A DNA stretch of 64,000 nt from Basidiobolus meristosporus CBS 931.73. Taxonomy: Eukaryota; Fungi; Basidiobolomycota. The DNA lies in NCBI GenBank assembly GCA_002104905.1, contig MCFE01000395.1, positions 18,027 to 82,026 of the forward strand, in the 5' to 3' direction. The notes under the pieces were generated by a model that was given only the letters and a program-made list of their open reading frames with translations, was not told the origin of the DNA and did no database searches. The position numbers were made by a program, and so were the translations under genes. Below, in pieces: positions 30,501 through 63,387 of the stretch (its first letter is position 1; each line of letters begins with the position of its first letter).

Positions 30501-32822
30501 GAAACAGCTTAAAATGGGAATAATTATCCTAATACTTTATGTAGACAATCTTCTATTAGCTATAAGTGATCAAGGGGCACTTAAACAGACAAAATGACAA
30601 CTCATCAGCAGGTTTAAGATGAAAGATCTTGGAATATCAAGCTATCTTCTTGAAATTAAAGTCAAATCTGACATATCTACACCAAATATTGTGCTGAATC
30701 ACTCTAAGTAGATTTGGGACATTCTTGATGCTTCAAAATGAAAAATTTTAAGCCTGGAGCAACCCCCTGGGACAATAATCTGAAATAGATTGAATCACAG
30801 CTTGTTCTGAATGAAAACAGCTCATATATGGGCCAATGAAATCCCTATCAATCAATGGTTGTTAGGCTGATGTAGCTAGGGGTGTGTACAAGTCCATATA
30901 TTACATTGACAGTTGGAATAGTCAGTCAACTCAGGATAAATATGCATCTGGTCAGATTTCAGCAGTTAAGCAAATCTGCAGATGTGTGCAAGGTACCATC
31001 AATATGGTTCAGAAATTATCCAGAGCAGACAATAGGCAAAGATTTAATGGCAATAGTGATTCAGATTGGGGTAGGGATCTAATTGACAGATGCCCTACCA
31101 CTGGGCACGTAATTCTATATGCTGGTTCAGTTTTTACTTGGAATTGCAAGAAACAACCATTTGTAGCCCTATCTACAACTGAGGCGGAATTCATGGCTGC
31201 TTGCCAAGCAACTAAGGAGGCTATATGGTTACAGATATTATCCAAAGGCCAAGGTTTCACTTTAAATGAACCAACATGTATCTACAAGGATAATCAAAGC
31301 TGTATTTCATCAGCTAGGAATTCTACTAATCATGCCAGTACCAAGCACATAGTTATATGACACCACTTTGTAAAAGAAGCTGCAGAAGGAGTTTAGTAGA
31401 GATAGCTTGCTGCCCAACTGAAAAAAAGATGGCAGATACATTGATAAAGCCACTACCTAGGCCACAATTTGAGAATTCTGGAGAGAAATTGCGATTAAGA
31501 AATTTATTTATTGAGGGGGAGTGATAGAATAATGGACTGTGTGGTATCATCCAGCAGCTAAAAACTCACTCAGCAATTCTGTACTAGTCCTAGTCACTGT
31601 AGGACTAATTTATAGCCCTAACTTTGCTACTTTCTTTCAGATCTAGAATCCTATGATTATTCCCCTATAGTCAAGATCAAATTAGCACTTTTATCATAGA
31701 CTAAGTACTGATTCTGAAGCTTCTACAGAGTGCTCCTTAAAGTAAAGATACCCTCCTTATTTGGTGCTGTATTTATACTGCTCCCGCAAAGGTATAGATA
31801 CTGCACTTCTTTATGAATAGGCAATAATGCAATCATTATTATTATCTCTTGATTTATTCCTTATTTCCAACACACTTTTAAATTACAACACCTCCTGAGT
31901 TGCTTGAAAAGCAGTCATATATTCTGCCTTACTTGTAGATATGGCTACAGTTGGTTGCTTCTTGTAATTTCAAGCAATAGCTGCACCAGCATAAAGAAAT
32001 ATATACATAGTAGTAGTGCATCTGTTGATTACATCTCTACCCCAATCTGAATATTCATAGCCAATAAATATTTTCCTATTGGCTGCTCAAAAGCATCCCA
32101 AAACCATATTAATGGCACTTTAGAGATATCTGAGAATTTGCTTAACGGCTGCAATTTGATCAGATCCTTAATGCTGCATGAATCAGCTGACAATTCCCAA
32201 TGCCACTGCAATATTTGGACATGTAGATACCATCAGGTATATCATGCTTCTAATCATTAATTCATAGGATAGGTTTTGGTCCATGCCTGAGCTCTTTTCA
32301 TCTGAAATTGGTTAAGATTTGCACAATTTCAGGTGATTGTCTATGAGGATTGCTCCTGGTTTGCAATTTTCCATTTTAAAGCCAATAAGAGTGTTCCTGA
32401 TGTGCTTGGACTAATTTAGAACAGTTTTCTGCATAGACATTCTAGATTTGACTGAGATTCCAAGAAAATAGCTAAATTTTTCATGACATTGCATCTCAAT
32501 CCTGCTGGAGAGTTGTGATCTTGTCTGTTTAAGTGCCTCCTGGTCACTTGTAGCTATTATTAGGTTGTTGACATAAAGTACCAAGATAATTAATCCCTTT
32601 TAAAGCTGGTCTACATTTATTCTCTGATCTGCAGTGCTGTAAAGGAACCCAACCTCCTCTAGATATGAGTCAATCTTGTTAATGTTGCAATATTCTGAGA
32701 AGTAATGGAGGTGATGCAGAAAACTACAGGATTTACATGTTATTCACTTGTAGATTTATTGTTCCAAAGTATGGTATTAATACTTTTGATAAAGTAGAGC
32801 AAACAAATTTGTAGGGTTTGTT

Positions 32823-33170
32823 TGTTGTAAGAGTCTTGGAGATATTGGAAGTGATTGGGAGAACAAGTAAATTATGGGGTTTTCACTTAATGATTTATTG
32901 AATGTAAAAGTATTATTTATACTTTTACCTGGTCTTGGCATTACAAACACGTGGAATAGGTTAAGGAAGGTCCCAAGAACATGTGTGCAAAGTTTGGGCT
33001 GTTTGGACAACTTTGAGAATTTTCATGTTCTGGGTACCTGGTATTTTGGTGAAAATATTCTAAGTAAATCCCAACAAGGAATTTGGTCAGTATTTTCCAG
33101 GATTTGAAGGTAATGATCTAAGTGACTAAGTTAGGTGAATATTTAGGTGGAAATACAAATTTTTACAACA
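32823..33170 (-). repeat. Solo LTR-C inserted in the 3' LTR of element D
   Basis: 348 bp, TG..CA, perfect TSD TTGTT. Confidence 0.95.
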
Positions 33171-36100
33171 TTGTTAAGGAAGGTCCCTGTTGTAGAAATA
33201 TGTAATTCCACCTGAATATTCACCTAACTTAGTTGCTAAGTTTTACCTTCATATCCTAGAGAATACTGACCAAATTCCTTGTTGGGATTTACTTAGAATA
33301 TTTTCATCAAAATACCAGGTACCCAGAACATGAAAATTCTCAAAGTTGTCCAAACAGCCCCAAACTTTGCACACATGTTCTTGGGACCTTCCTTCATATA
33401 TGCTATGTGCTTGTAATGCCACAACTATGTAAGCGTATAAATACCACTTTGACATTCAATAAATCAATAAGTGGGTACCACATAATCTACTTGTTCTACC
33501 AATCACTTCCAATATTGCCAACACTCTCACAACAGGTTATGAGCCCCAAGCTGTCACTCTCTGCCATGCAAACCACAGCTATTACTGGAATTTTTCCCTC
33601 TGCTGAAAAGTTGGATGGATCTAACTACCAAGTGTGGGAGGTGAAGATTTAGATGCTGCTACAAGAAAGAGGCTCTAGGGATATTGTCATGAGAGAAGAA
33701 TGCCCTACTAATGTGGGAGAGGAAGCCTTAGAGTACCAGAAGAAAGAACAGTGTGCCCTTAATTGCATATGCCCTAATGTTAAAGACAAATTGCTAACTC
33801 AATGCTCAAGCGCAAAAGTGGCAAAGAATGCCTGAAAGGCTTGAGAAGACACCTACCAGTCATGTTCAGCTGCCAAGAAGATGTATCTGAGACAAAAATA
33901 CTTTACTACAAAGATGCTGCCGGGAGAAGAAATGAAAAATCTAATTAACAGAATTACCCTGCTGGTAGATGAGATGGAATCTGTGGGTGTACCAACTGCT
34001 GATGAGGATGTGCTAGTTACCATCCTGAACAGTCTGAATGACAGGTTTCATGGCCTTGTATCAGCCCTAGAATCCAGAATGGAAGATTTGACCTTAAATT
34101 ATGTATTTGGAAGGCTCCTGGATGAAGAATCAAGAAAATCCAGTGCCAATAAGAAGGAAGAAGAAAGTGATTTAATATGCAATGTTAACCAACAAAGGAG
34201 GTACCCAAGACCTTACAAAGGCAGCAGCAGCTTGTTTTACAACTACTGCAAAAGGAAAGGACACACATCAGACTGGTGCTTTAAGAAGAAAGATATTCAG
34301 CAGAAAATGCCTGAATATGGAACTGCTGCAACATCTGAAGAGAGACTATTCATATCTGCACTAAATATGACTGCAAACAAGGATTCTCAGATGTGGTACA
34401 TTGAATCTGGAGCATCTCAACACTTTAAATACCAAAAAGTACTTTTACCCAATATCAAGAGATTCCAATTAAGCAGGTTTTCATGGGTCACTATAGAACA
34501 CTCAATGCAGTGGGAGAAGGAACAATACAAGTAAACCTAAGAAGCAGTGAAGGAAGCCATACACTGACCTTTAAAGAAGTACTCTATGCACTGGAAAGAG
34601 CCAAGAACCAATTATCTGTAAGCAAGGCCACTGCAGAAGGACTCAGTTTCAGCTTTGACAATTCTGGATTCAAGATTACTGATTGAATGGTGCCTATATT
34701 GCTTTTGGTATCAGAGATCAGAATCTATACAAGTTGACTTATATTCCATCATTTTTGAAGCCAATATAAGTAACTTATATGAAGTAACACAAATGCTTTG
34801 GCACAGGAAATTTGGGCACATCAATTTTGATTATATGCACAATATGATCAAAGATCAGCCAATTTCTGGAGTAAAAATTGATCCCCCAGCTATTTTGGAG
34901 CACTGTGAAGCCTGCATATATGGGGAACAAGCCAGACAATCATTCAGGAGCTTGGGGTTGATCAAAACTAAGAAAAAGTCAGATCTAATTCACTCATATT
35001 TGTGTGGACCTATGCAAGACTTATCCTTAGACAGGATAAAGTATTTAATCACCTTTATTGAGGATTATACAAGATACACATGGGTCTACTTCATGGAGAG
35101 AAAGGAAGAAGCTCTGTCTAAGTTCAGGGATTTTAAGGCCATGGTGGAGAGAAAAACTGGTGAAAAAATCAAGAAAAATACGCACCAACAATGGTGCAGA
35201 GTATACCTTAAAACTCTTGATTCACATCTGCAAAATTCATGGGATAAAGCAAGAGACTACTGTACCATACTCTCCACAGCAAGATGGAGTAGCAGAGTGT
35301 ACTAACAGATCCATAACTGACATGGCAAGGTCTATGATCCATGATCAAAAATTATCCTACAATTTTTGGGCGGAATCAGTTGCCACTGCTCTATACCTTA
35401 AAAATAGGAGTTATAACAGAATGCTTTGTGATTCTACTCCATTTAAAGCATGGTATGGATACAAACCAAGTGCAGAACATCTAAGAATATTTGGGTTTGC
35501 AGCATATGCCAAGAAACTGCCTAGAAATCAGTCAAAATTTGAGCCATAAAGTGTTAAATGCATATTTTTGAGCTACAGCAATGAGAGTAAAGCATACAGA
35601 CTCTACAATACCAAAGCCAAGAAGCTGATCAAGTACAGGGATGTACTATTTGATGAAAATTCAACATTTTTACAAAAAGTGACATCAGATGATCACAAAA
35701 ATCTGATCTCAAGTCCACCAATTGTCAGGATTGAATCAGAGCAAACTAATGAGAATTTTTTCACTCCAGAGGACACTACAACCATAGTTCAGCCAGAATC
35801 AGTGCCCAGGAATATCCCAGAAGTGATCATACCAGTATCAAATGCTCAGTGATCCAATTGGACAAAAAATAGTCCAAATTACTATATCAATGAGGGTATA
35901 TACTTCAACTATGCCTATTCAGTACATATTGATGAACCCTGGACTGTGAAAGAGGCCCTAATTAGCCCTCAGACAAAGTTTTGGAGATCTGCAATGACTG
36001 AGGAATATCAGGCCCTGATGGAAAATCAAACCTGTGACTTAGTTAAACTACCAATCAACCAAAAATTAATTGGATGCAGATAGGTCATCAATACAAAATA

Positions 36101-37000
36101 CAAGGCTGATGGTACAACCAAAAGATAGAAAGCAAGAGTTGTGGCCAAAGGATACTCTCAAAAAACAGGACTTGACTATACTGAGACCTGTGCACCAGTA
36201 GCCAAGCTTATTTCCATCAGTTTAATATTAGCTATTGAAGCCAAATATAAGTTTTTTATTCATCAAATGGATGTAAAAACTGCATTTTTAAATGCAGAAC
36301 TTGATGAGGATGTGTATATAGCCCAGCCCAATGGGTTTGTTGACCAAGATAACCCCCATTTGGTCTGCAAGCTTAAAAAGTCACTAAATGGTCTCAAACA
36401 ATCACCAAGAGCCTGGAATTGCAAGACAGATTTTTATTTGGAATCTTTGAGTTTCAAAAGGAGTAATGCTGACTATAGTATAAGCTATAAGCCAGATAGA
36501 GCCAATCCAGCTCTATTTGCTGTATATGTGGATGATCTTATTACAGTCACCAATAACATAAAAACATTGGAAGAGACTAAATCCAGCCTAGATAAGGAGT
36601 TCAAGATGTCCAATCTAAGAGGACTCAACTACTACCTAGGGATGAAGTTCTCCATCAACAGAAGTACCCAGACTATGACCCTAAGCCAATCCAAGTATAT
36701 TCAAGATATACTAAAGAGGTACCAAATGGAAGACTGTAAACCAGCAGCTACCCTAATGGAGACAAACCTTAACTTGGTCAAAACTTAGCCAAATCAAGAG
36801 AGCTTGGTGCCATCTGGAAGCCCTGACTTCCCTTATCAATCTATGGTCAGCAGTCTGATGTATATCATGCTTGGAACATGTCCAGATATCTCATTTTCAG
36901 TGGGAGTTGTCAACCAACATAATTAGAACTATGGATCTGATCATATTGCAGCAGTTAAGCAAATTTTTAGATACCTAAAAGGAACTGCTGATACCTACTT

Positions 37001-40000
37001 TGTTACAAGTCTTGGTATAAGAGTTGTAGAGGTATAGGGAGTTTAGCCAGTAGTGTATTCTCTAAAACTTGAACTAATTTTTATTGAGGTTCCAGCTGCT
37101 CCTTATATACATTTTGCCAGATCAATTGCTGACTTATTGTATTTCCTAATGTGGGTTGTGACTGATGACTCATTTGATCTCATCATCATCACCCAATAAG
37201 GTTCTACTTAATACATCCATTTCTGTCTGATAAGGATCTGCTGATTTATTTGCTGACTGATGCTACTGATATGATAGATAATACTGATATACTGATAACC
37301 TAAACATATACTAATTGATTTGACTAAAAACTGATCCAACTTAAGCATTCAAGCGGCAGATCATATCATTCTCCCCTACCAAGGTTGAAAGGGTTCTCCT
37401 GAATCTCTTTTTGTGTGATACCAATATCTTGTTGGTTCAGTATTATCAGCAAGTCTTGCAAGCTTGAGTCTGTCCCTATGCACTAAGTCTTCCTGGGTGT
37501 TGCCTTGTTTGTCCACTAGTTGGTAAGTTGCAAATGGACATTCTCTGTTGATCTTAAATGGTCCTGTTCATTGTGGCTCAAACCTCTTTCAAGTGTTGTT
37601 TCTTAGCAATACAAAGTTCCCAACTATCAGTGCTGCTGGTGCTATAGTCCTATCAAATCTCTGCTTCATCTTTTCTGCACTTTGAGATACTTTGATCTGT
37701 GCCTCTTGACGTCTTTGTTACAGTTGCTGGTGTCTACTTGGCTGACTGAGTTCATCTTCTAAGGTGTCGGTAAGCCTTGGTTGTGTGAGATCTCCTGGAA
37801 TCCTAGATTCACATCCGTACACTAAGTAAAATGGCAATTGCTGGGTGGTATTGTGTACTCTGACTCTGCATGCAAAGAGTGCTTGGTCTATATACTCATC
37901 CTATCTACTGGCAACTCCATTTGCATACTTGGTCAGCATTTTTCCAAACAATCCATTAAACCGCTCAGTGACTTCATTAGTTCTGGGATGATATGCTGAG
38001 GTTTTCATGTGTCTGATCTGCTGCATTTCCAGGTAAGCTTCCAATATCTTGGCCATAAAGTTTGCTCCTCTACTGGATAGAATCTTTACAGGGCATCCAA
38101 ATTTCATAAGGATCTCATGGTAGATGAAACTTGCAACTTCTTGTTCACTGGCTATAGGTACAGCTTTAGCAACTGGCCATTTGATGGCATGGTCAATTGC
38201 TACTAGGATCCAACAGTTGCATTTCCTGGTAGTTGGCAGTCTTCCAATAAAGTCAATTCCCCATCTTTCAAATGGTCTTACAGGCTCCAAGGTAAAAAGC
38301 TCGGCAATTCTCTGTGGTTGGCCTTGGTTGATTTGGCAATTTGGGCATGTTTCACTAGCTTTTCAATGCCTTGTTTCATTCTGGGCCACCATGCTCTGGC
38401 TTTCACAAGGCTATAGGTTCCTTCAACTCCAAGATGTCCATATCCATTGTGTAGCTTAGTTATTAAATCCAGGCAAGAAACATAAGGGCAATAGGCAACA
38501 GGGCTTCCAGCAACAGTTTTGTAGAGTGCTTCATCCTGTACTATAAATTTGCTGGCTCCATCCCGGATTATCTTCTTGATATCTTCATCCACCTCATTAG
38601 GAATGACTCGGTCCTCCAAGTTCTTTGGTAATAGGCTGGGCCAATCTAATTCATGCACCAAGTTGAGTTGTGTAACTTGTTCTAATCTTGATAAGGCATC
38701 AGCAACCGTGTTGTTTTTTCCAGGGCAGTAGACAATCTCTAAGTCAAATTGCTGAATGTATTCACTCCATCTTGTCACTCTTCTAGAGAGTACCTTCTGA
38801 GTAAATATATACTTGAGGGAGGCATGATCAGTCTTCACAGTGCATTTGACTCCTTTAATATAGCATCTCCATGTCTTCAAGCAGTGTATTATAGCAAGCG
38901 TCCCCTTCTCATGCACTGGATAGTTTTGTTCTGCTGAGTTCAGTTTCTTGGATTCAAAGGCAACAGGGTAGTTGTTTCCCTCATGTTCTTGACTCAACAC
39001 TCCACCAATTGCATAATCTGAAGCATCTGTGCACAGAGCAAACTCTTTTTGGAAGTCAGGTATTCTTAAGCTTGGTAGTTTAGCAAGTTCATTCTTGAGT
39101 GTCTGAAAGGCAGTCACACAAGCTATGTCCCACTTATAGGTGTTGTCATTCTTGAGGATATCAGTTAAAGGGGCTGCAATACTTGCAAAGTTCTTGACAA
39201 ATCTCTGATAATAGTGAACCATTCCAAGGAATGATCTGAGTTCTGATATGCTATGGGGCTGCTTCAGGTTGTTGATAACTTCAACCTTCTTAGGGTCTAA
39301 GGTCACTCCTGTGCTAGTAACTATGTGTCCCAGGTATTCAACGTGTTCCTTGAAGAATTCACACTTGGCTTGCTTGCCATATAGCTTGTTCTCTCTTAGC
39401 TACTTTAAGACCTTTTCAATGTGCACCACGTGATCCTCTTCTGTCTTGCTGTATATCAGTGTATCATCCTGGTAGATTATCACAAGCTTGTCAAAGTACT
39501 CCTGAAAGACAGTCTGCATCATGGTCATGAATGTTGCAGGGGCATTGGTGAGGCCAAAACTCATGACTAAGTACTTGTAATGTCCATATCTGGTCCTGAA
39601 TGCTGTCTTACGGATATCTTCTGGCTTCACCATAATCTGGTTGTATCCTGACATGAGGTCAACCTTGCTGAAAATAGTGGCTCCATTGAGTTGGTCCAAA
39701 AGCTCATCAATCCAAGGTATGTGTTGTAAGAGTCTTGGAGATATTGGAAATGATTGAGATGACAAGTAGATTATGTGGTTTTCACTTAGTGATTTATTGA
39801 ATGTAAAAGTAGTATTTATACTTTTACATGGTCTGGGCATTACAAACACATAGAATAGGTTAAGGAAGATCCCAAGAGCATGTGTGCAGAGTTTGGGGCT
39901 GTTTGGACAACTTTGAGAATTTTCAAGTTCTGGGTATGTGGTATTTTAGTGAAAATACTCCAAGTAAATCCCAACAAGGAATTTGGTCAGTATTCTCTAG

Positions 40001-42262
40001 GATTTGAAGGTGATGATCTAAGTGACTAAGTTAGATGAATATTTAGGTGGAAATACAACTTTTTTACAACAGTATGAGGTATTTATTTTTCATGGTAACT
40101 GAGTTGAGGGCTCTGTAGTCAATACACATCCTAAGAGTTCCATCCTACTTCTTCAGAAAAAGAACTGGTGCTCCCCAAGGTGACTTGCTGGGTCTGATAT
40201 ATCCTTGCTCTAATAACTGATCTATTTGTCTCTTCATCTCTTCCTACTCCAATGGACTCATGCTGTAAGGAGTCTTACTCACTGAGGGGCTATTTCCTGT
40301 GTCAATGGTATGATCTACATCTCTGACTGGTGGTAGGCTTACAAGTTCATCAGGAAATATGTCTGAATATTCCTTCAAAAGAGTCTGGACTTTTTGTGGT
40401 ACTGGTGTAGAGGAGTCCTCCTATAATACTGCCATGAGGAACATCTGGGTGTCTTTTCTTGGTGCTCTACAGAACTGTGTCTTGCTAAGTTCACTTGTTT
40501 CACACACACTGGAATTGACCAAGTTAAAAACCAGTCTGGCAGCTAATAGCTACCAGGTCTTGTTGTCCTTCTGTATCTGAGTAGCATGGGTTCTCCAGTT
40601 GATGGATGGATTACAACAAAATAGCCAGGCTATCCCAATTACAAGGTCAAACTTGCAGTTCCCAAATATATAGGCCTGTAGATCTTCTTCATAGTTGTTG
40701 ATCTTCATCCTTACTGGCTGAGTAATACAGTTGATTATGTGAGAGTTCCCATCAGCTGTTGAGACTGAAGTTGATTTAGTGGGTTCCAAGTTGATTCCAG
40801 CTTTCAAAGCAAATTGTTCTGACAAGTACTTGTGCAATGCTCTGGAGTCAATTGTGATTTTGGCAGGTACTCCATTGATTACTCCATTCAAGTATAATAG
40901 CTTTCCTGAGTTTGAGGTCATCTGGGAAAGGTATTCTACTGTCATATGGAAGGTGAGTTCTGAGTCTTCTTCAAGTTCATCCTCCATGCTACTTTGCTCC
41001 AGGGCATCATTATAGTTGAAGGTTCTTGATGGCTTGTGTCCATTACTTCTTTGAGGGCAGTACTTTGCAATATCACCCTGCTGGTGGCAGCTGAAGCAAA
41101 GTCCTTTCTTCTTACATTCTTTTGAGGTAGGATTCTTCTGCATAGCATCTATTTCCATTGGCACTGTTTCTGATTGTCTTCTTTCATAGAGATTGTAGCC
41201 TCTCTGATTAGTCATTGTGGGCTTCCAACTCCAAACATGGCTGAGTCATAGTCAATGGCAATCTTGATGGCTTCTTCAATAGTCTGAGGTCTTTGATAAT
41301 GCACTTCCTTACAAGTTCTTTCTTTCAACCCATCAATAAAGCATTCAACTTGATCCAGAGGGTCCATTCTTTCAATTTGTCTAAGTAGACATCTATATTC
41401 ATAGATGTACTCTTGGACTATTCCTTTCTGTCTGAGTGTCTTCAGCTTTCTTCTTAGTAGAGTCTGCTGGTGTGGAGGTTTGAAGGCATCCTGAATATCT
41501 GGCACAAACTCATCCCAGGTAGAGATTGTAGAGCATCCCATCATGGTGGATGACCTGATCTTGTTGTGGTACCACTGTAAAGCTGCATCTGCCAGGTAAG
41601 AGGCTGCATAATGTAACTTGCTTTCTGGAGCAATTCCCTTAGCCTTGAAAGCTTCTTCAATCTGGAAGAGCCAAGTTCTCAGGTTTTCATTGACTCTACG
41701 ATGGTACTGGTTGACTTTCACACTAAAGTTGCTCTTGACAGGGTTTTGCTGGCTTTGGGCCATGGTGGTCATTACTTGTTGTTGCTGCTGGGCCAGGATT
41801 TACTGCATAGCATTCTTCCATTCTTGATTTTCAGACATCTTGAGGGAGGCTTCTTCTTTCTTCAGGAGGGAGGTCTCTGGTTATTGCTACTACCAATGTT
41901 ACAAGTCTTGGTATAAGGGTTGTAGAGGAATAGGGAGTTTAGCTAGTATTGTATTCACTAAAACTTGAACTGATCTTTATTGAGGTTCCAGCAGCTCCTT
42001 ATACACATTTTGCCAAATCAATGCTGACTATTTGTATTTCCTAATGTAAGTTGTGCTGATGACTCATTTGATTGCATTTTCATCACCCAATAAGATCCTA
42101 CCTAATATATCTATTTCTGTCTGATAAGGATCTGCTGATTCATTTGCTGACAAATGCTACTGATATAATAGATAATACTGATATACTGATAACCTAAACA
42201 TATACTAATTGATTTGACTAAAAACTGATCTAACTTAAACATTCAAGCGGCAGATCATAACA
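37001..42262 (-). mobile_element. Ty3/gypsy LTR retrotransposon G3 (family B)
   Basis: LTRs 37001-37368 and 41897-42262, perfect 4-bp TSD ACTT, PPT 37369-37380. Long RT-RH ORF 38278-39306 and IN ORF 37901-38290. Confidence 0.96.
39722..40071 (-). repeat. Solo LTR-C inserted in the RT of G3
   Basis: 350 bp, TG..CA, perfect TSD GTATG. Confidence 0.95.
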
Positions 42263-42840
42263 ACTTAAGATACACTTATAAGAATTCAGAACAGGATCTG
42301 GGGGGATACTATGATGCTGATTGGGGACAAAATTTAGAAGACAGAAGATCCACCACAGGATACACCTTTCATTACTGTCAAGGAGCAATTTCATGGAATT
42401 CAAGAAAGCAACCAACTGTAGCACTTTCTACCACAGAAGCAGAGTATATGGCAGCCTGTGAAGCTACAAATAAAGCAATGTGGCTAAGAAAGCTTTTTAC
42501 AAATTTAGGCCTATGTCAAAAAACACCAATACTTTATTTCAAGATAATCAAGGATGTATACAATTAGGTAGAAATCCAACGTTTTATGCTAGAGCTGAGC
42601 ACATAGATATTAGACATGATTTCATATGTGAAGCTATAAAGAATAGCTTAGTTAGCTTAGTTTACTGTCCTACAGATGAAATGATTGCAGACATATTTAC
42701 CAAACCATTAGCTAGAGACAAGATACAATATCTTAGGTCAAAATTTGGACTAGTCAGTAGGAGCATTTAACTGAGTGGGAGTGTTATAAAAACCTGTATT
42801 TCCACCTAAATATTCACCTAATTTAGTTACTTAGATCATG

Positions 42841-43571
42841 TGACTTGTTCTGTTGGATAGTGCCACATTGTGCCATGAGTGCCAAATGATACCATAGTGT
42901 GCCAGAGAGGCCAAGTGAGCCTATACCTGGCCACAGAGTGTGAAACATAGATCTGCATCTTCATGCAAAGCAGCCCCTGTGCTTCACCTATGATGCAGGA
43001 GAAAATCCATTTTTGACGTTTTTTTGTGGATCAATATTGTGCAGGATGTGTAAGACCACTAAAGGATTGAAGATATACATCTGGTACTCAATACTCATGG
43101 CACTCTGAATCTAGCTCCTGTGGCTTGTTTCATGTCATAAAATGCATGGCACTATCTTGGTCCACTGGTACTATCTGGCACTATATTTAAATATTACCCC
43201 TAAAGTAAGATCAATACAAAGCACTTATAGAGCCGGATAGTACCAGTGGACCAAGATAGTGCCATGCATTTTTGTGACATGTTACAAGCCACAGGAGCTA
43301 GATTCAGAGTGCCATAGGTATTGAGTACCAGATGCATATCTTCAATCCTTTTGTGCACTTACACATCCTGTACAACATATACCTAAAAAAAAAGGTCAAA
43401 AATGGATTTTCTCCATCACAATGTGTGAAACACAGAGGCTGCTTTGTATGAAGATGCAGAGCTGTGCGGCACACTCTGTGGCCAAGTGTAGGCTCACTTA
43501 GCCTCCCTAGCACACTATGGCATCATTTGGCACTCATGGCTCAATTTGGCACTATCCAACAGAACAAGTCT
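42841..43571. mobile_element. Foldback / MITE-like non-autonomous DNA transposon
   Basis: Inverted arms 42842-43185 and 43226-43570 (about 344 bp) around a 40-bp spacer. Interrupts LTR-C at GATCAT|TACC. Terminus matches 2015-2038. Confidence 0.9.
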
Positions 43572-44749
43572 ATTACCTTCATATCCTAAAGAATACTGAC
43601 CAAATTCCTTGTTGCAATTTACTTAGATTATTTTCACCAAGATACCAAGTACCCAGAACATGAAAACTCTCAAAGTTGTCCAAACAGCCCCAAACTTTGC
43701 ACACATGCTCTTGGGACCTTCCTTGACCTATTCTATGTGCTTGTAATGCCAAGACCATGTGAAAGTATAAACACTACTTTCACATTCAATAAATCAATAA
43801 GTGAAAACCACATAATCTACTTTCTCTCTCAATCACTTCCAATATCTCCAAGACTCTGACAACAGTCCCAGGAATATGTGTGGAAAGTTTGGGGGCTTTT
43901 GGACAACTTTGAGAAAGATCATGATCTGGGTACCTGATAATTTGGTGAAAATATTCTGCGTAAGTCCCAACAAGAAATTTGGTCAGGACAGAATGCCAAT
44001 CCACAAATAAGAGCTATGTGACTAAGTTAGCATGAATATTTTGGTGACAACTTAATAATTACAACACTTCCACTCAGTAAAATTCTCATGAGTGAAAACT
44101 ACATATTGCGAGTGCGCAATCTGTAATAAGCATATAAGACTTAGCTGTGTTGCATACAGGACTAATATATTATCCAACAGTATGTGCATTTGTGTTCAAA
44201 TTACTTGAACAAGAAAAAACTAGTAACTAAGTGTGCATATCTACTTAATAGTATGCCTAATAATCAGAATGATCTGATCAAAAAACTAATCAATAGTTTT
44301 GATCAGTTGTACAAGAGTGAATAATGCCCTAAGTCTGATTGTCAGTCTGTAATACTGATATATAGCCTCTGGGTTATCCAATGCCTTTTATTTGAGCAAA
44401 ATTGACCCACCTTTGGTCAAGTAAGGTTTTGTCATTTATGACAGATCTGGAGTTTCCTTATTTCTGGGCAAAAGTCTAGTTCACTTAGACAACTTCATTG
44501 TATGTCCATATTTGGCTCAGGGACAGTTACTTCCATCATATAGACTCTGTATGAGGTAAAAGATATGACCTATGTTGGGCCCAGTTAGAGTTTTGTCATT
44601 TACACCTGATCCAGATTATCCTCATTTCCTGGCACAGTTGCACATACAAACATAGCCAAAAAAAGATTTTTGCTCAGCTCCAAGCTGGGATGGCCTGCTC
44701 CCACTTGAGCAATGTCTGTTTAGTGATTGAGATCCACAAAAATGATCAA

Positions 44750-45720
44750 GAGTGGTCATCTTTGTCTTCCTTAAGTAGCAGTACTTTCTTTGGACTGATT
44801 ACTTCATTTGCAGTATATTCAAAGTCCACTTGCTTCTTAATTTACCCAGCTTGGTATCAGAAAGGTACCATTGGTTGTTTGGTAGCTATTTTTAGAGTGC
44901 TTCTACCAATTTGGACTAATACAGCTGCTTTTGTCTTATCAGAATATACTTTTAGAGTAGATACAGGCGCTTTTTGAGAAGTGAGATTCTCCTTAACAAG
45001 GGCTTTGATAATCCTTTTTCTCCTGATAGTTATTTTCAACCTTGAGCTTGGTTTGCAAGGCTAACTAATCTTCTCAGTGTCTTCAGAGCTCATAAAAACC
45101 ATCTGATTGATGCTGGCACCTTTTTCTTTCAGATCCTTAGACAGCAGATGTCAAGACCTCTGCATTAAATAATCTGCCCTGATATATACTACAGTATCTA
45201 ACAGATGCTGTTGAAGTTTCAGTGCTCTTCTGGGGTTTCTAGTGTGAGAGCTTCATACAAGAGGCTCCATGGATCATACCTGCATTACCAGATAGTCCAA
45301 ATATAGCCTACATAGGCTTTGGTTCCATTTAGAAAGTACCTTGATTTGTGGCAGTAGTATTTTCCCATTTTTCTTCTTTTTCTTTTTCTGCTGATGATCC
45401 AAAGGTAAATCCTTTTGTGGGATAGTTCTGGACTTCCTTACAGGTGGGACCACTGTGTGTTTGAGCATGGAAGACCTCATGACATCATTTGTCCAGAATA
45501 TTTGACTATTTGAGAGTAATAGAGTCAAAAGCAGCATCCACACATATCAACCATAACTTTTGGTAGAGTTGTCCAAATTTGATTAAATAAACTGCATTTG
45601 CAAGCTAGTCTCATCAGTGCTTATGTATCAGATTGCAATATATCAGATTCTTGAGTTGCAGAGCTCAGCAGTGACTGGATCAATCACAACACTTCTGATC
45701 TGATCCAGAGAATCAAATGT
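44750..45720 (-). pseudogene. Possible second decayed cargo frame (ORF-b) of element D
   Basis: ORF-track fragments 45274-45543 and 44857-45039 lie in one frame with scattered stops and a poly-Lys run (QQKKKKKKNGK). Weaker than ORF-a. Confidence 0.35.
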
Positions 45721-46447
45721 CACCAAGTGTTTCTCCCACTGTAATAAGTGATACATATATAACAAGTATAAGTACTATGTTATCTTCTGAGCTGCTTGCA
45801 GCTGTATGCTGGCCAACTGTTGCTTGGTTGTAAACTCTAATCAGGCTTGTAATCATTTGCTTCACTTGCTCTGGGTAGTGGTAGAATCTTCTGGAGTTGA
45901 TTTTGCTAAATTTGTAAAATACTTTCTCCCACTGTCTTGAGACTTGAACAGAGTGATAGCATGTCCAACAGCTCCATATTTGCATTCTCAGCCTTATTTT
46001 GAGCGGCAACAGATCTGGTAAAATATTCCTCTGGCAATCATTTAATGATGATCTATATTTTTTTTGAGATAATATCCTATCCAAAAGCTTGTCCAACAGT
46101 CAATTGAGATCATTAGAATACATAGTGCAATATATTTCATTGTAGATATGGACCCTCAATTGCTGGTATTATGAAATTTTCTTCAGTTGTGGTAGAGCGC
46201 AAACATACAATATTTCTTGACATATTTACATGTCAACTTGATAGACACTCTTAGATAACCAGCTTGAATAGTTACTGAGTGAGTCTTTTGAAGGCACAGC
46301 CTTCTTCTCCACAGCAATATCCTCATGAATATAGTTCTTGTAGCAGCTGTAGTCATCTTTAATACTGTCAGGGCAATAGTGCAGAAAGTCTTTCTCCAGA
46401 CTTGCAGAAAAGAATCCAAGGCAAAGTAAACACCAAGAGGACAGCAT
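45713..46447 (-). pseudogene. Decayed cargo ORF-a of element D, unknown product
   Basis: Single frame of 244 codons with only 3 internal stops (46226, 46169, 46100). Hydrophobic N-terminus MLSSWCLLCLGFFSASL and hydrophobic C-terminus IVLILVIYVSLITVG. Confidence 0.55.
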
Positions 46448-49138
46448 GCCCGGGGCTCATAACCTGTTGCTATATTCTGTGGAGTATTGGAAGTGATGCA
46501 GGGAACTAGAGGATATACATGTTATTGACTTATGCATTTATTGTTCAAAAATATGGTATTTATACTTTTGATAAAGTAGAGCAAACAAACGTATAGAGTT
46601 TGTCAAGAAAGGTCCCCAGAATATCTGTACAAAGCTTGGGGGCTTTTGAACAACTTTCAGAAAGATCATAATCTGGGTACCTGATAATTTGGTGAAAATA
46701 TTCTGCGTAAGTCCCAACAAGAAATTTGGTCAGGACAGAATGCTAATCAAAGAATAAGTGCCGTGCAACTAAGTTAGCATGAATATTTTGGTGACAACTT
46801 AATAATTACAATAGTTATTTTGTGCTCTAAGTGCCTGCATACACCCACACAGTGATTTTCCAAGTCTGCACACCTTATAAGGGCCTTTTGGATTGGCATA
46901 GCCTTTGGATCACTCCATATATAGAGTTTGTTGCTGATCATTATTTAGTAAGGCAACTTTGACATCCATTTTGTGTAGCTAGAGACTGTGTACAGCTGCC
47001 AGGGCTAGAGCTGTCTTAATGGAGTTATATTTGGCTACCAGAGCAAATGTTTCCTTAAAGTCCAGTCCCTAGATTTGGGAATAGCCCTCAGCCACCAATC
47101 CTGCTTTGCACTTATTGATGGTACAATTTGAGAGTATCTTGATCATTTACACCCATCTATATCCTATTGGCTTTCTCCCATATGGTAATTTTACCATTTC
47201 TCTTATTTTTGCCCTGATCAGTGCTTAGTACTTTTCCTGCATAGCCTGCTGCCATATAATAGCATCTGGACTTTGCATAGCTTGTTCCAGATTCAGAGGT
47301 TAAGCTCATCAGGGAAGATAAGCTGCTTCATGGCCACTGGATGTCTGCCACCCAGATCCACAGGCATCTCTTACTGTGCTAGATCTCCTAACTGGAATAA
47401 ACTGTTCTGATCTGGAACTAGTAGAGTTTTCTTCCATATTGGGCTGTATTAGGTTTGAATATTTTTCCTTAGTGGTATTTATATCAGCAGGTAGCTAGTC
47501 AATGATCTAGGTGTCTTTCTGATCTAAATTCACCTCTATTACAATGTCACTGCTCTTGATCTGCTTCTGATTTTTACCATCATACACTCTATGCCTTTAG
47601 TATCTTTACAAAAGCCAGGAAAGGTCCCTTTTCTACTTTTTGGCTCAAGCTTTGAGCATATTTTGTCTGGGATGTGATAGAAAACATCACTGCCAAATCT
47701 CCTACAGTTCTGAAGGCATGGTTTTTGGCCTGTATATGATTCAAGGGGTGCTGAATCATATAGTGCTGTTGTTGGGCATTAAATTTTGACATTTACCACA
47801 GTAGCAGCAGATTAAGCTCAAGCCTTGTAGTCCAGATCCTTTTGGTGTATCACAGATCTTTCTATTTCTATTATCAATATATATGTTGTAAGAGTCTCTG
47901 AGATATTAGAAGTGATTGGGAGAACAAGTAGGTTATGTGGATTTCACTTAACAATATATTGAATGTAAGAGTAGTATTTATACTTTTACATGGTATTAGC
48001 ATGGCAAACACATAGAATAGGTCAAGGAAGGTCCCAAGAGCATATGTGCAAGGTATAGGGCTGTTTGGACAACTTCGATAATTTTCATGTTATGGGTACC
48101 TTGTATTTTGGTGAAAATATTCTAAGTAGATCCCAACAAAGAATCTAGTCAGTATTCTCTACAATTTGAGGATAATGATCTAGGTGACTAAGTAAGGTAA
48201 ATAACTAGGTGTAAATACAAGTTTTTACAACCCTCACACTCAGCTAAATGTTCATACTGACTAGTCCTAATTTTGACCTAAGATATTCAAACTTGTCTCT
48301 AGCTAATGGTTTGGTAAATATGTCTGTAATCATTTCATTTGAAGGACAGTAAGCTAAGCTAACTAAGTTATTCTTGATAGCTTCATGTATGAAATGATGT
48401 CTAATATGTATGTGCTCAGTTCTTGCGTGAAAAGTTGGATTTCTACCTAATTGTTTACATCCTTGATTATCTTAAATAAAGTAATAGGAGTTTTTTGACA
48501 TAGGCCTAGATCTGTAAAAAGGTTTCCTAACTACATTGCTTTTTTTGTAGATTCACAGGCTGCCATATACTCTGCCTCTGTGGTATAAAGTTCTGTGGCT
48601 GGTTGCTTTCTTGAATTCCATGAAATTGCTCCTTGACAGTTAAGAAAGGTGTATCCTGTGGTGGATCTTCTGTCTTCTAAGCTTTATCCCCAATCAGCAT
48701 TGGAGTATCCCGCAAGATCCTGTTCTGAATTCTTATAAGTGTATCTTAAGCAGATATCAGCAGCTCCTTTTAGGTATCCAAGAATCTGCTCAACTGCAGC
48801 AATATTATAAGATCTATAGCTCTGAATATGCTGGCTGACGACTACCACCAAATATGAGATATTATGGATATGTTCCAAGCATGATACACATTGGACTGCC
48901 AACCATAGATTGATGAAGAAAGTCAGGACTTTCAGATGGCACCAAGCTTGCTTTATTTGGTTGAGTTTTGACTAAGTCAAGGTCTGGCTCCATTGGGGTA
49001 GCTGCTGGTTTACAGTCTTCCATTTGATACTTCTTTAGTATATCTTGAATATACTTGGATTGGCTTAGGGTGATAGTCAGGGTACTTCTGTCTATGGAGA
49101 ACTTTATTCCTAAGTAGTAACTGAGTACTCCTAGATTG

Positions 49139-55645: not shown

Positions 55646-56155
55646 TTTAGGAGGGAATTCTTCTCTCATGGCAATATCCCTAAGGCCTCTTTCTTGTAGC
55701 AGCATCTTCATCTTCACCTTCCATACTTGGTAGTTACATCCATCCAGCTTTTCAGCAGAGGGAAGAATTCCAATAATAGCTATGGTAGACATGGCAGAGA
55801 GTGACAGCTTGGGGCTCATAACCTGTTGTAAGAGTCTTGGAGATATTGGAAGTGATTGGGAGGACAAGTAGATTATGTGGTTTTCACTTTATGATTTATT
55901 GAATGTAAAATTAGTATTTATACTTTTACATGGTCTTGGCATTACAAACACATAGAATAGGTTAAGAAAGGTCCCAAGAACATGTGTGCAAAGTTTGGGG
56001 CTGTTTGGACAACTTATCTAATTTTCATGTTCTGGGTAAATATTCTAAGCAAGTCCCAACAAGGAATTTGGTCAGTATTCTCTAAGATTTGTAGACTATG
56101 ATCTAATTGACCAATTTAGGCAAATATTTAGGTGGAATGACAAATTTCTACAACA

Positions 56156-56525
56156 AATATGAATATTCAGCTGAGTGGAAGTGTTGTAAATTTTGTGATT
56201 ACACCTAAGTATTCGCCTAAATTGGTCAATTAGATCATAGTCTACAAATCCTAGAGAGTTCTGACCAAATTCCTTTCTGGGAGTTGGAATATTTTCACCA
56301 AAATATCAGGTACCCAGGATATCAGAAATTGACAAGTTGACCAAACAGCCCCAAACTTTGCACACATTTTCTTGGGACCTTCCTAAGGGTATTCTACATG
56401 TTTGTTTTGCCAAGACCATGTAAAAGTATCAATACTACTTTTACATTCAGTAAATCATCAGGTGAAAACCACATAATCTACTTGTTCTCCCAATCACTTC
56501 CAATATCACCAAAACTCTTACAACA
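56156..56525 (+). repeat. 3' end (PPT plus 3' LTR 56182-56525) of a further copia-C element C6
   Basis: GAATATTCAGCTGAGTGGAAG (pol end and PPT) followed by a 344-bp LTR-C ending CTTACAACA. Rest of the element absent. Confidence 0.9.
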
Positions 56526-56629
56526 CTATCTACATTGCATTAAAGTCGATACCCCGCAACTATAGTGCCATACTGCCAAATTTCTGCCAAATCACTGACG
56601 CAACCACCGGAAATGACCAGAGAATGGGA

Positions 56630-56635
56630 TTTATT
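56630..56635 (-). promoter_or_regulatory. Candidate polyadenylation signal AATAAA of DOM34
   Basis: About 90 bp downstream of the stop and about 105 bp from the first LTR. Confidence 0.4.
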
Positions 56636-56723
56636 GGGTTGACCGCGCCGCCACCCGGATGGATGGAGTAAGGATGGGTGGCATGCTGCGGGAGGGGTTC
56701 TTCTAGACCCTGGTGGATCGAGG

Positions 56724-58316
56724 TCACTCCTCCTCTTCCTCGTCCATGTCGGGAAGCGGGAAATTGAGGATGGCGGCCACGCCGGTCAACTGTTCCAGTT
56801 CTATGAGCAACAACAAAGTACGAGGTGAGTATTTGGGAATCAACCGATGGATCCGAAAATGTACGAACGTTCGCCCGTCACGTGGAGGCTGGAGAAGATG
56901 TGCACCTTTCCCCCCATGGATCTGACCGACTCCACCAGGGCGATGTACTTCTTACGAGTGGCGATATCGGCGGCGCTAAGATCACCGATCGGCATTAGAC
57001 ACAGGGGAAGTGAGTAGATCGATACTGGACATTACCGGAAAAGACCGTCGGTTAGGAGCAACGTGTCGATCGCACCCATCTCCTCCGCCCTCTTGATGTG
57101 ATCGTACCCGTAGTAGGCTCTATCGGGGTCCTGGTTGAGCATCACGTAGAACCGATCGAGCGCCTTGATTTCTTGGGCTGCTTTGGTGTCGGCGAGCTTG
57201 GTCTGAATGGCGGAATCCTGCATGACTTCCTGCAGCGAATGCTTGTGACCACTGGAGCTGTGGATCAGCAAGAACTTTGGCTTGTTCTCTAGCAGGAGTT
57301 TGTTCTCGGTTTTCTAGTGGGTACGCGAGCAAACCACGATCAGGACGTCATCGATGCGAGGCACCCAACGAACCAGTAATGAACTTACCACCGCCTCGGC
57401 GAATATGTACTGATAGAGTTGATCCTTAGCGAGAGCGAGGTTAGCTTCGGGGCGAGGTTTACTTGGGGCGGCATGTCTTACCTTGACGAAACCTGGACTG
57501 GCGATGATCACGGTTTTGACGATGGAGAAGTCCACATGTCGGAGGATTCCCTCCATAACTTGCTGGTAGAACTTCTGCAGGCCTTTCTCGTAATTCGTGG
57601 TGGACCCCTTGCGTTTCCTGGGAACCGGGGTCTCGATCCTTTGTCGGACAATGGTCATGTTCTGCGTGAGCAAGCAGATGTTCGCCAAGCCTACGGCCGG
57701 GGGAGGGGGAGGGGGAGTGGGTAAGTGTACGCTCGACACTGGGAACTTCCCCAAAACTCACCTTCTTGTAGAACAACCGCCGCGACATCCGCTTGCTTGG
57801 AAATATCGCAGGCCTCGTCGACGCGCTCCAAAGAGATGGTGTCCCATTCGGGCTTCAACAGGGTGAAGTTGCGGTTCAACTCCAAATCGATCGTGTGAAA
57901 AGCACCCAGCTAACGGACGGTACGCAACGTGGTCAGAAAGAGGTCGCTCGTACTTTCAGGGAGGGGAAAGTACCTTGACGTATTTATTCTCGCTGATGTT
58001 CTGCCCGTTGATTCTCAACAAGCCGACCTGTGGGTCGAAGTTGACGTCGGACACGGTGATGGTCAGTGTCAGGCGAACCCTGGTGCTTTCAACCGAGCCG
58101 GTATTACTCTCGGACTGGACTCGTCTGGAAAGAAGGCTCGGTAAGTGGAGGCGTCGTGAAGGAGAATGGCCGGCTCACAAACCTGATGGTGACGGCCCTC
58201 AACTGATCTCCCACTTGGATCAGGTTGTACACATGCCACATGTCTTCCAACTCTTCGGGGTACAGCGTGACATACCCCGTTTTGTCCTTCTCTATATGCT
58301 TTTTGATAAGCTTCAT
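56724..58316 (-). CDS. DOM34: Pelota/Dom34 ribosome rescue factor (eRF1 family), 379 aa, 8 exons
   Basis: Exons 58316-58183, 58124-57974, 57909-57762, 57690-57482, 57424-57389, 57313-57036, 56975-56869, 56800-56724 splice via GT-AG introns to 1140 nt. Motifs [57 protein letters not shown]. Confidence 0.97.
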
Positions 58317-58468
58317 GGTTGAAATCTAATAATCCCTACGGACGTTGACAAGCATGAAAACCAGACATGCAGCTAATCATGACATCAACCAAACGTGATC
58401 CAAGAATTTTTTTGATCTGATGGTTTATTGGTGATCGTTGGTCAAGCCATCGGCCAGCACAGGTGGGA

Positions 58469-60063
58469 TTAGAGGGCATCTCCATTGGGCCCGCGATAGA
58501 TGGCTATGGCGGCGGCGGTGCAAAGGAAAAACAGGAACCGGCACCATTTGAATATGCTTTTGATGATGGATTTGACGATTTTTCTAAGCCAGCTGAGGGG
58601 CCCAGCAGGCCGCGGGGGACAGTCCTCCTCAGACGAACTCTCCCCAGACTCAATAGGGTCGAATGCCTCCTGAAGATACCCATTTCGGAGGGGTAATGGG
58701 GACTCGGGGCTATGGAATATGCCTAGTGAAGGATTCTCAGCAATGGGTGTGGATGTGATATACCCACTATGAGCAATGGTACGTGGTGTCGTCAAGCGGT
58801 TGGATGTCCGGGGTGTAGACGTGCTGTGTGAGTTCCAGCTGTACTCAAGCTCATCAAGCAAGGTTCTCCTTTTCCTGGTGCTGCTGGCGGGAGTGTATCC
58901 CGAGCGTGCAAGGAAGCTGCTTCTGCTGGGACTGCGCGGGGAGAAAACCCTTGGGACCGAACGGGGGGAAAACTGGGTGAAAATGCTCTGGATCCAGGAA
59001 CCTTGATCTTCAACGGATTGCGATAGCTCGGCAACATGCATGGATTGCCTTTCAAACGCGCTTTCCAATTCTGCGTAGTCCTTGGTGGACTCCTCTAGCG
59101 TGTTGGCTTGAACTGTAGTCTCCTCGAGCTGCGACAGCACTGATTGCAACCTCTGTTCGAGATGGGCTTTTTGGGTAACGATGGTGGCGTTTCGTTCCTC
59201 CAGTGAGGAAACCCTGCTTAGTAACATGTCTATCGTCTCATTCCCGATAGAACTCTCGATTTTCGACTGGGGTTTGACGGGAACCGATCTATCGGATTGT
59301 TGAGAGGGCGGTCGAAGTGGTAGGTCTTCCCGGTACCGCATGGAAAGGCTGTGGTTCCTACGCTCCAATTGTTGGATCGTTTGGCAGGCCAACTCCAGTT
59401 CGCGGCGTAAATGCTCCACCTCATTCTCCAATTTGGTTATCCGCCGCTCTTCCTTATCTCGAATCCCATTTTTTTCGTCCATTGCATGGTCCACCTTCTG
59501 CTGCAGGTCCAGATTCAGCTGCTCGAGAGAAGCGATAACCCGTTCTTCATCGTAATGGGTGGTGTGTCGTCTAAAGGCAGAACGAAGTCGTAGCTGTGCT
59601 GGGGGTGGTGGAGGCGGAGAAACCCCGTAATCGGCTTTCAACAGGTCTCCACTGCTGCGAGCGGGGTCTTCGCTCGGTACGTTCAACTGCTCAATATACT
59701 CGACCAGTTCTAGGTATTTCTCCTGCAATATATCGTTTTCCTCTATCACCATACTGCGCAGCTTCGCGGCAAGCGTTAGTTCTGTTGGGCAGGGAGAAAG
59801 GTTAACGTCAATCATGTATCCGCGCTACGGTATATAGTTGGTGGAGCATTTGCTCGCTTCCAAGAAGCACAAATGACAATATCCAAACCTCGGTCTTTCT
59901 CCATTATCAAACCGTAGGCTTCCCTCAAAAGCCTCTGAAATTCCTGCTTGGTGAATCTCCCGGAGGAAATAAGAGGACTGGGTCTGCTGGAGGGGCTCTC
60001 CACTGGCAAGGCCAGCAGAGCGTCCATATTGGATTCTGGAGCTAACTCCGGAAAATAGAACAT
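58469..60063 (-). CDS. Coiled-coil protein with CC1-box-like motif and C-terminal hydrophobic anchor, about 495 aa, 2 exons
   Basis: Exons 60063-59889 and 59781-58469 join in frame across a 107-bp GT-AG intron to give EKDRELTLAAKLRSMVIEENDIL. Two long heptad regions. C-terminus WCRFLFFLCTAAAIAIYRGP. Start may be the Met at 60027. Confidence 0.85.
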
Positions 60064-60513
60064 CAGAGAATAGAGCGTTACAAGCCTATCTCCGGAGTGG
60101 TGTGGATATTATAAAGCATGGTTTGGAAATGCAAGTCATGAAAATTCGATGGATATGAAAGTGTAGATGGATTGGATTCAGTACTAACTAACTACTGAAC
60201 ACATTCGCCACATCTCATAAGCGAATAGTCAGACCGACCGGTCCAATCCGTAGATTATCATCCGCTCCGTTCTTTGCCTAGAGTCCTGAATTTATTTCCA
60301 TGCGGGCCGAACCAATGGCGGATTTCTATATAACCTTAGTTACACCAATGATGGCGGCAAATGTGCCAGCTTCCCAAAACGGGCAAGCGCCTAATTAGGC
60401 AATCCCAGAATGCTCGGAATCTACTAAAATATAGAAGGCTCCTGTCTGTATAAAAGCACATGTGCTTCGATATAAATTCAATGCAGTGGTAACCATCTGC
60501 GTAACATTATTTG
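60064..60513. promoter_or_regulatory. Compact divergent intergenic region, probable bidirectional promoter
   Basis: 450 bp between two head-to-head starts. Several CCAAT/ATTGG motifs and TATAAAA at about 60449. Confidence 0.4.
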
Positions 60514-63275: not shown

Positions 63276-63387
63276 GCGCTATCATACACATCATGTACAC
63301 ATACACCAAATATAACATCTATCAACGTTATCTAATATCTATAGATTCTATCAACATTTATTCATTAATTGCCAATAAATATACCCT

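What the first reader, a model, noticed from the sequence alone, without database searches (positions are those of the whole stretch)
44067..46464. LTR retroelement D carries an unrelated decayed gene instead of gag-pol
Seen: element D has two related LTRs, a near-perfect 5-bp TSD, the half-tRNA primer site GGTTATGAGCCCC and a PPT (CTGAGTGGAAG) essentially the same as copia family C. The 2.4 kb between primer site and PPT has no gag, PR, IN, RT or RH motif in any frame I could read. Immediately after the primer site a single sense frame runs 244 codons with only 3 stops; random sequence of this composition should give roughly a dozen. It starts with a signal-peptide-like and ends with a membrane-anchor-like hydrophobic stretch, and a second decayed frame follows. 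Known: non-autonomous LTR elements (LARD/TRIM types, and LTR-mediated retrogenes) are mobilised in trans. Inference: D is a cargo-carrying satellite of copia-C that amplifies a captured host or novel gene, possibly secreted or membrane-bound. Caveat: the ATG lies in leader sequence resembling the copia-C leader and may be incidental.
Basis: partly seen in the sequence, partly recalled or inferred. Interest (0 to 1): 0.8.

Follow-up and report, generated by a model that had tools for sequence, protein, structure and literature searches.

The report
Multicopy fungal LTR element, dead interior
This is a repeated, enzyme-less retrotransposon in a probably fungal genome, likely copied by a related copia element; its 2.4-kb interior is shared by many copies but holds no intact gene (the start codon is nearly confined to this copy and the stop codons are shared by most copies), so it is an ordinary non-autonomous element rather than a gene carrier.

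Summary
The anatomy is real. Element D (minus strand, about 3.1 kb) has 349-bp LTRs 88% alike, a 4/5 TSD, a copia-type primer site and a PPT, and no gag-pol match. Contigs of one sample show the interior is a multicopy family joined to D LTRs at both ends. The 244-codon frame with 3 stops is rarer than chance in this copy (P about 0.007). The cargo-gene reading fails. At most 3-6% of family depth keeps the ATG. All three stops are shared by the family majority, which carries two more. Every sense frame has at least 3 majority stops in 46068-46250. Indels in other copies fall inside the 'membrane anchor'. No homologue, domain or confident fold was found. Weak coding traces (two stop-poor sense windows, codon periodicity, A-rich strand, transposon-like GC) suggest an ORF that died before the family spread, likely the element's own. 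A gag origin is neither shown nor excluded. Verdict: a new member of a known kind, a non-autonomous LTR retrotransposon like Candida Tca1/Tca9/Tca13. The scan noted pol-less fungal LTR elements with intact cargo in two other genomes (unchecked); D is not such a case.

The parts
46465..46813 (-). 5' LTR of element D (349 bp)
   Evidence: 308 of 349 identical to the three pieces of the 3' LTR; 72-77% to copia-C LTRs
46814..46818 (.). Target-site duplication, right copy (GTTAT)
   Evidence: D interrupts an old copia RT whose halves resume at 46814 and 32680
32678..32682 (.). Target-site duplication, left copy (GTTAA)
   Evidence: 4 of 5 bases match the right copy
46452..46464 (-). Primer-binding site GGTTATGAGCCCC, followed by about 15 nt resembling the copia-C leader
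   Evidence: same motif after LTRs of families A and C; 12 of 29 metagenome loci with this motif carry a copia gag; its match to half of tRNA-iMet is recalled, not tested
45713..46447 (-). Stop-poor frame 1 (244 codons, 3 stops here, at least 5 in the family majority); ATG nearly private; not a functional gene
   Evidence: no homologue at 134-429 aa; model pLDDT 37.8
44560..45768 (-). Stop-poor frame 2 (6 stops in its best 244 codons, 45627-44896), weak codon periodicity; likely coding relic
   Evidence: periodicity P 0.014; no homologue at 221-2015 aa
44067..44077 (-). Polypurine tract CTGAGTGGAAG; the 41 bp from 44067 to 44107 are 73% like the end of copia-C
43870..44066 (-). 3' LTR, first piece (197 bp)
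   Evidence: 178 of 197 identical to the 5' LTR
33176..33187 (-). 3' LTR, middle piece (12 bp) between two later insertions
   Evidence: 11 of 12 identical; flanked by both insertion TSDs
32683..32822 (-). 3' LTR, last piece (140 bp)
   Evidence: 119 of 140 identical
32823..33170 (-). Solo copia-C LTR inserted in D's 3' LTR
   Evidence: perfect TSD TTGTT
33188..43864 (+). Full copia-C element (with further nested insertions) inserted in D's 3' LTR
   Evidence: perfect TSD GTCCC, LTRs 87.5% alike; gag-pol by tblastn

Best explanation
D is a multicopy LTR element with no intact gene that was likely copied in trans by the enzymes of copia-C or a close relative, and its interior is likely the remnant of an old transposon reading frame that was already broken when the family spread. 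Shown: LTRs, TSD, primer site, PPT, the multicopy interior, and the shared stops. Inferred: a transcript from the 5' LTR is packaged by a helper Gag, primed by the same tRNA fragment as families A and C, reverse-transcribed from the shared PPT and integrated by the helper integrase with a 5-bp TSD. The interior would act only as spacer or packaging RNA. Also inferred: the interior descends from the element's own ORF (a gag-type or other transposon frame) diverged beyond recognition.
For: Complete cis-signals, with leader and pre-PPT sequence like copia-C. Interior covered in all bins at 23 or more times the depth of this copy's own contig, with 14-34 distinct contigs per listed variant site and diverged contigs across both junctions (one sample, depth is not a copy number). 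This copy differs from the majority by 40 of 561 bases (7%), about half the 12% LTR-LTR divergence, so the majority likely approximates the amplifying template. That majority keeps all 3 stops and adds TAG at 46210 and TAA at 45946; four of the five are TAA/TAG, which single-step CpG decay does not make. The majority has 3-4 stops in every sense frame within 46068-46250. Coding relic: two non-overlapping windows of 6 or fewer stops on one strand, P 0.0065; periodicity in frame 2, P 0.014, like copia controls at 0.01-0.06; A-rich sense strand (+0.06 to +0.12, copia +0.17 to +0.19) and GC 37-39% like copia and unlike host genes at about 50%.
Against: No similarity to any gag or pol profile was found, so the transposon origin of the interior rests on position and composition only; the profile test loses power beyond about 25% extra DNA divergence. 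Frame 1 has no periodicity (P 0.63) and no copia codon bias. The relic statistics used thresholds chosen after seeing the data. The majority was read fully for only 561 of 2,398 bases, from short contigs of one sample, with indels under-counted. A minority subfamily with an open frame would be invisible. The C-terminal hydrophobic stretch is unusual in this copy (P 0.002).
Confidence: 0.66

Rival explanations
1. The interior is a host or other cellular mRNA captured long ago by template switching (an LTR-mediated retrocopy) that died before the family amplified.
For: Only the two ends of the interior resemble copia-C, as expected for a retrocopy between discontinuous retroelement pieces (PMC5131818, abstract). 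Sense-strand coding traces. No gag match.
Against: No cellular homologue or domain. GC is 37-39% against about 50% in the window's host genes; by hand estimate, full CpG decay would lower 51% only to about 45%. The parent could not be sought because no genome is held.
Confidence: 0.14
2. The interior never coded for a protein; the stop-poor frames are chance in AT-rich, CpG-depleted DNA.
For: With the majority's 5-6 stops the best-of-six P is only 0.09-0.23. Frame 1 has no periodicity. Contigs of other copies carry many gaps (2-9 per 230-290 bases).
Against: Two stop-poor windows on one strand (P 0.0065), periodicity in frame 2 (P 0.014), and an A-rich sense strand.
Confidence: 0.14
3. One reading: D carries a functional cargo gene, possibly secreted or membrane-bound, kept intact in some subfamily.
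For: 3 stops in 244 codons here (P 0.007). Hydrophobic C-terminal stretch (P 0.002). Three one-base indels seen in other copies (46067, 45769, 45729) could link the stop-poor stretches into one longer path. Pol-less fungal LTR elements with intact cargo were noted elsewhere in this scan (unchecked).
Against: ATG kept by at most 2.7-5.8% of depth. Stops are shared and more numerous in the majority. The longer path still meets majority stops at 46185, 46158, 46095 and 45946. N-terminal hydrophobicity is at chance level. No homologue.
Confidence: 0.06

Closest known systems
[quoted passage not shown]
   Same: LTRs, PBS, PPT and TSD kept; no intact coding capacity; multicopy family; LTR similarity of 70% or more to an autonomous family is one of that paper's criteria for a partner
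   Different: That survey is of a plant genome. D has no recognisable coding-domain remnant.
Candida albicans Tca1, Tca9, Tca13 (PMC4139406, passages read)
   Same: Fungal LTR elements with 5-bp TSD and intact PBS/PPT but no gag/pol ORF; presumed to move by transactivation
   Different: No sequence comparison was made. D is older (LTRs 88% alike), appears to have more copies, and lies in a CpG-depleted nested cluster.
TR-GAG elements of plants (PMC4350172, abstract and outline read)
   Same: Under 4 kb, non-autonomous, sense frame directly after the primer site
   Different: TR-GAG has one open gag ORF; D has neither an open frame nor detectable gag similarity.
LTR-mediated retrocopies (PMC5131818, abstract and outline read)
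   Same: Unrelated interior between short retroelement-like ends
   Different: No parent gene, intron loss or in-frame protein shown; composition is transposon-like.

Membership tests
Non-autonomous LTR retrotransposon (broad sense) | Two direct LTRs with TG...CA ends | tested here: met
   349 bp each, 88% alike; one terminal base of the 5' LTR is changed (TTACAATA against TTACAACA)
Non-autonomous LTR retrotransposon (broad sense) | 5-bp target-site duplication | tested here: met
   GTTAA/GTTAT, 4 of 5
Non-autonomous LTR retrotransposon (broad sense) | PBS and PPT retained | tested here: met
   same PBS before copia gag in 12 of 29 outside loci
Non-autonomous LTR retrotransposon (broad sense) | No intact gag-pol coding capacity | tested here: met
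Non-autonomous LTR retrotransposon (broad sense) | Multicopy family with the same interior | tested here: met
   diverged contigs over the whole interior and both junctions, one sample
Non-autonomous LTR retrotransposon (broad sense) | Identified autonomous partner | tested here: inconclusive
   copia-C LTRs 72-77% alike with shared leader and PPT; D-type LTR depth is about 8 times interior depth, so solo LTRs or an unseen closer partner are possible
LARD (strict) | Length over 4 kb (PMC13570524) | tested here: not met
   349 + 2,398 + 349 = 3,096 bp
LARD (strict) | Conserved structured internal RNA (recalled) | tested here: inconclusive
   one 361-nt leader stretch folded, z -0.03; no Rfam match; no covariation test possible without copies
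TRIM (strict) | Length under 1 kb (PMC13570524) | tested here: not met
   3.1 kb
TR-GAG | Under 4 kb with LTR features | tested here: met
TR-GAG | One open reading frame encoding Gag | tested here: not met
   no open frame in this copy or the majority; gag profiles score below shuffles; a dead, very diverged gag is not excluded
LTR-mediated retrocopy | Cellular parent gene with introns lost in the copy | not testable with these tools
   no genome held; no homologue
LTR-mediated retrocopy | Interior flanked by discontinuous retroelement segments with microsimilarity at the joints | tested here: inconclusive
   C-like leader and 41-bp pre-PPT segment seen; microsimilarity needs the parent

The most novel reading that the evidence does not exclude
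A minority subfamily of D still carries an intact, roughly 600-codon sense ORF with no known relative, running from the primer site to about 44600: a new fungal LTR cargo protein or an unrecognised Gag replacement, of which this copy and the family majority are dead descendants.
Probability: 0.07. Interest if true: 0.65.

Novelty: new member of a known kind. Interest (0 to 1): 0.2.

Why it matters
As it stands it is a modest addition: a further fungal non-autonomous LTR family that spread with a broken interior, showing that the shared primer site, PPT and partly shared LTR were likely enough for mobilisation in trans. It is also a caution that a stop-poor frame with an ATG in one old copy can be a private accident. 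It would matter more if an intact subfamily ORF or a cellular parent were found, since that would add a new cargo or Gag-like protein.

Tried and rejected
Whole-genome copy collection: no genome held; replaced by laying contigs of public runs, where X1 and X2 are one sample that may be the window's source. Expression: no RNA holder listed, no evidence either way. Pfam on six read-through frames: only chance-level hits, E 0.08-0.12; on sub-frames E 0.026 or worse and below cut-offs; PHROGs E 0.2; PDB sequences none and E 0.55; Rfam none. Homologue searches: frame 1 at 134-429 aa, 0 of 170 candidates; frame 2 at 221-706 aa, 0 of 1,916, and at 707-2015 aa, 0 of 2,492. Frame 1 was not searched against longer or shorter proteins. 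The single full-library phmmer job was given the wrong frame by my slip (start 45770, the third sense frame) and found 0; it says nothing about frames 1 and 2. Exact look-up found 0 of 6 window ORFs, including two copia gag ORFs, so the collection may not hold this genome's proteins and the blanks are weaker for it. No language-model look-alike search of the interior was obtained, so remote similarity is open. Single-sequence AlphaFold2 of frame 1: pLDDT 37.8, not used for a fold search. D-specific motif in metagenomes: 0 matches; the general primer motif gave 29 loci, none similar to the D interior (best tblastx E 0.049 on 12-17 residues). A by-eye likeness of frame 2 to copia gag was rejected: profiles from 5 and 19 gag sequences and 81 single queries scored at shuffle level. 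An antisense frame that loses 5 stops and gains 1 in the majority was noted, but over six frames losses (11) and gains (12) balance, so it was treated as chance. The even spread of differences over codon positions (14/12/14) is not evidence against selection on the lineage, because these are mostly this copy's private changes. Six paper searches listed nothing on this family; supplements were not opened.
Full report
Setting. Bases 1-56,000 are a nested transposon cluster with CpG observed/expected 0.07 and GC about 39%; bases 57,000-64,000 have CpG 0.87 and GC about 50%. The latter holds a C2-domain phosphatidylserine decarboxylase gene (Pfam PF02666 and PF00168). A fungal host is inferred from these features, not shown. 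No whole genome is held.

Anatomy. D lies on the minus strand. The 5' LTR is 46813-46465. The primer site GGTTATGAGCCCC starts at 46464, and the same core motif follows LTRs of copia families A and C. The PPT is 44077-44067. The 3' LTR was split twice: a solo C LTR (32823-33170, TSD TTGTT) and a full C element (33188-43864, TSD GTCCC) sit 12 bp apart in it. The three pieces total 349 bp and match the 5' LTR at 308 of 349 positions; the outer TSD is GTTAA/GTTAT. D interrupts an older copia RT that resumes on both sides. D LTRs are 72-77% like C LTRs. About 15 nt of leader after the primer site and 41 bp at the PPT end resemble C; the rest of the interior matches nothing in the window. Of 29 metagenome loci with the same primer motif, 12 carry a copia gag, and none resembles the D interior. 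Half-molecule tRNA-Met priming is described in PMC6317226 (passages read); that this exact motif is such a site is recalled.

The frame in this copy. From 46447 a sense frame runs 244 codons with stops at 46228, 46171 and 46102. Dinucleotide shuffles give 17 stops on average, and the best window of six frames reaches 3 or fewer in 0.7-0.8% of 2,000 shuffles. A second sense frame has 6 stops in 45627-44896. The N-terminal hydrophobic stretch is matched by 7.5% of 3,000 shuffles, the C-terminal one by 0.2%.

The family. Two runs of one sample hold the stretch. Their contigs cover every interior bin at 23 or more times (mean 61-66 times) the depth of this copy's own contig; the tool warns that summed depth is not a copy number, so I read this only as many copies. 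Listed interior variants are carried by 14-34 contigs each, and diverged contigs span the PPT junction (44032-44422, 60 differences) and the primer-site junction (46273-46642, 70 differences). The interior is therefore the family's own and not a later replacement in this copy.

The cargo test. The A of the ATG (46447) is kept by 932 of 15,986 depth in X1 and 684 of 25,727 in X2. Some of the differing depth may come from C-type leaders, but the depth keeping the base is small against interior depth either way. For 45690-46250, one search lists all 40 differences carried by 40% or more of depth in X1. None removes a stop in the frame. Two add one: TTG to TAG at 46210 (9,287 of 9,685; 26 contigs) and CAA to TAA at 45946 (26,458 of 27,448; 31 contigs). 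A third at 45892 depends on a 42% variant. Within 46068-46250 the majority has 4, 3 and 4 stops in the three sense frames, so no simple frameshift rescues it. One-base insertions at 45769 (33% and 71% of local depth) and 45729 (43% and 42%) fall in and just after the hydrophobic tail. This copy differs from the majority by 7%, about half its LTR-LTR divergence, so the majority likely approximates the template that amplified; that template was already broken. Limits: 561 of 2,398 bases were read fully and only 40 of 831 variant rows were shown for the whole element; short contigs under-count indels; a minority subfamily is invisible.

What the interior was. With 5-6 stops the frame alone is unremarkable (best-of-six P 0.09-0.23). 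Some coding traces remain: two non-overlapping windows of 6 or fewer stops on one strand (P 0.0065, threshold chosen afterwards), periodicity in frame 2 (P 0.014, one of five D segments tested; five copia controls 0.01-0.06), and an A-rich sense strand. Frame 1 has no periodicity (P 0.63). GC of 37-39% matches copia and not the host genes. Gag and pol profiles score at shuffle level, but detection of a simulated decayed gag falls from 25 of 30 at 20% divergence to 6 of 30 at 30%, so a very old gag is not excluded. Homologue, domain, structure and RNA-family searches were blank; the full-library search tested the wrong frame, and the collection holds none of 6 window ORFs exactly.

Mechanism. 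Shown: intact cis-signals, integration with a TSD, a multicopy interior, no intact ORF in the part of the family examined. Inferred: LTR-driven RNA packaged, reverse-transcribed and integrated by a helper copia using the shared primer and PPT. The helper may be C, but D-type LTR depth is about 8 times interior depth, which allows many solo LTRs or an unseen closer partner.

Comparison. D fits the broad class of non-autonomous LTR retrotransposons and falls between the strict TRIM (under 1 kb) and LARD (over 4 kb) sizes (PMC13570524, passages read). Fungal precedents without gag/pol ORFs are Candida Tca1, Tca9 and Tca13 (PMC4139406, passages read). It fails the TR-GAG test of an open gag (PMC4350172, abstract) and lacks the parent gene that defines an LTR retrocopy (PMC5131818, abstract). 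Two earlier scan notes describe pol-less fungal LTR elements with recognisable intact cargo in other genomes (unchecked); D differs in having no intact or recognisable gene.

Verdict. Real element, ordinary kind. The cargo-gene claim is not supported. Interest 0.2.

Noticed in passing
window 9165-11334: A second element with an LTR 78% like copia family A, the same primer site at 9529 and an interior without gag. Its sense strand is T-rich (AT skew -0.21) and the antisense strand has periodicity (P 0.018), suggesting a decayed antisense ORF; no Pfam hit in six frames and no likeness to D's interior.
   Followed up: partly
window 16644-18490, 2043-3811, 7908-8430: Related decayed segments with a weak Transposase_21 (tnp2, CACTA-type) match, E 0.065, below cut-off.
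   Followed up: partly
window 42842-43570: A 729-bp palindromic (85% self-complementary) foldback insertion inside the 3' LTR of the copia-C element; its ends match 2004-2041.
   Followed up: no
window 46712-46815 against 44112-46399: D-type LTR sequence has about 8 times the contig depth of the D interior, more than the 2 expected from full elements alone.
   Followed up: partly
window 32823-33534 and 55824-56525: Two places have copia-C LTRs head to head within about 15-30 bp; the first arose from two independent insertions 12 bp apart.
   Followed up: partly
window about 56500: Sharp border between the CpG-depleted transposon cluster and CpG-normal genes; the first gene (56600-57850, minus strand) looks like pelota/Dom34 by eye (recalled, not tested).
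   Followed up: no
L005, L026, L012, L013: Outside loci with the same primer motif followed by ORF starts that do not match the local copia gag profile, so this primer site goes with varied N-terminal proteins.
   Followed up: no
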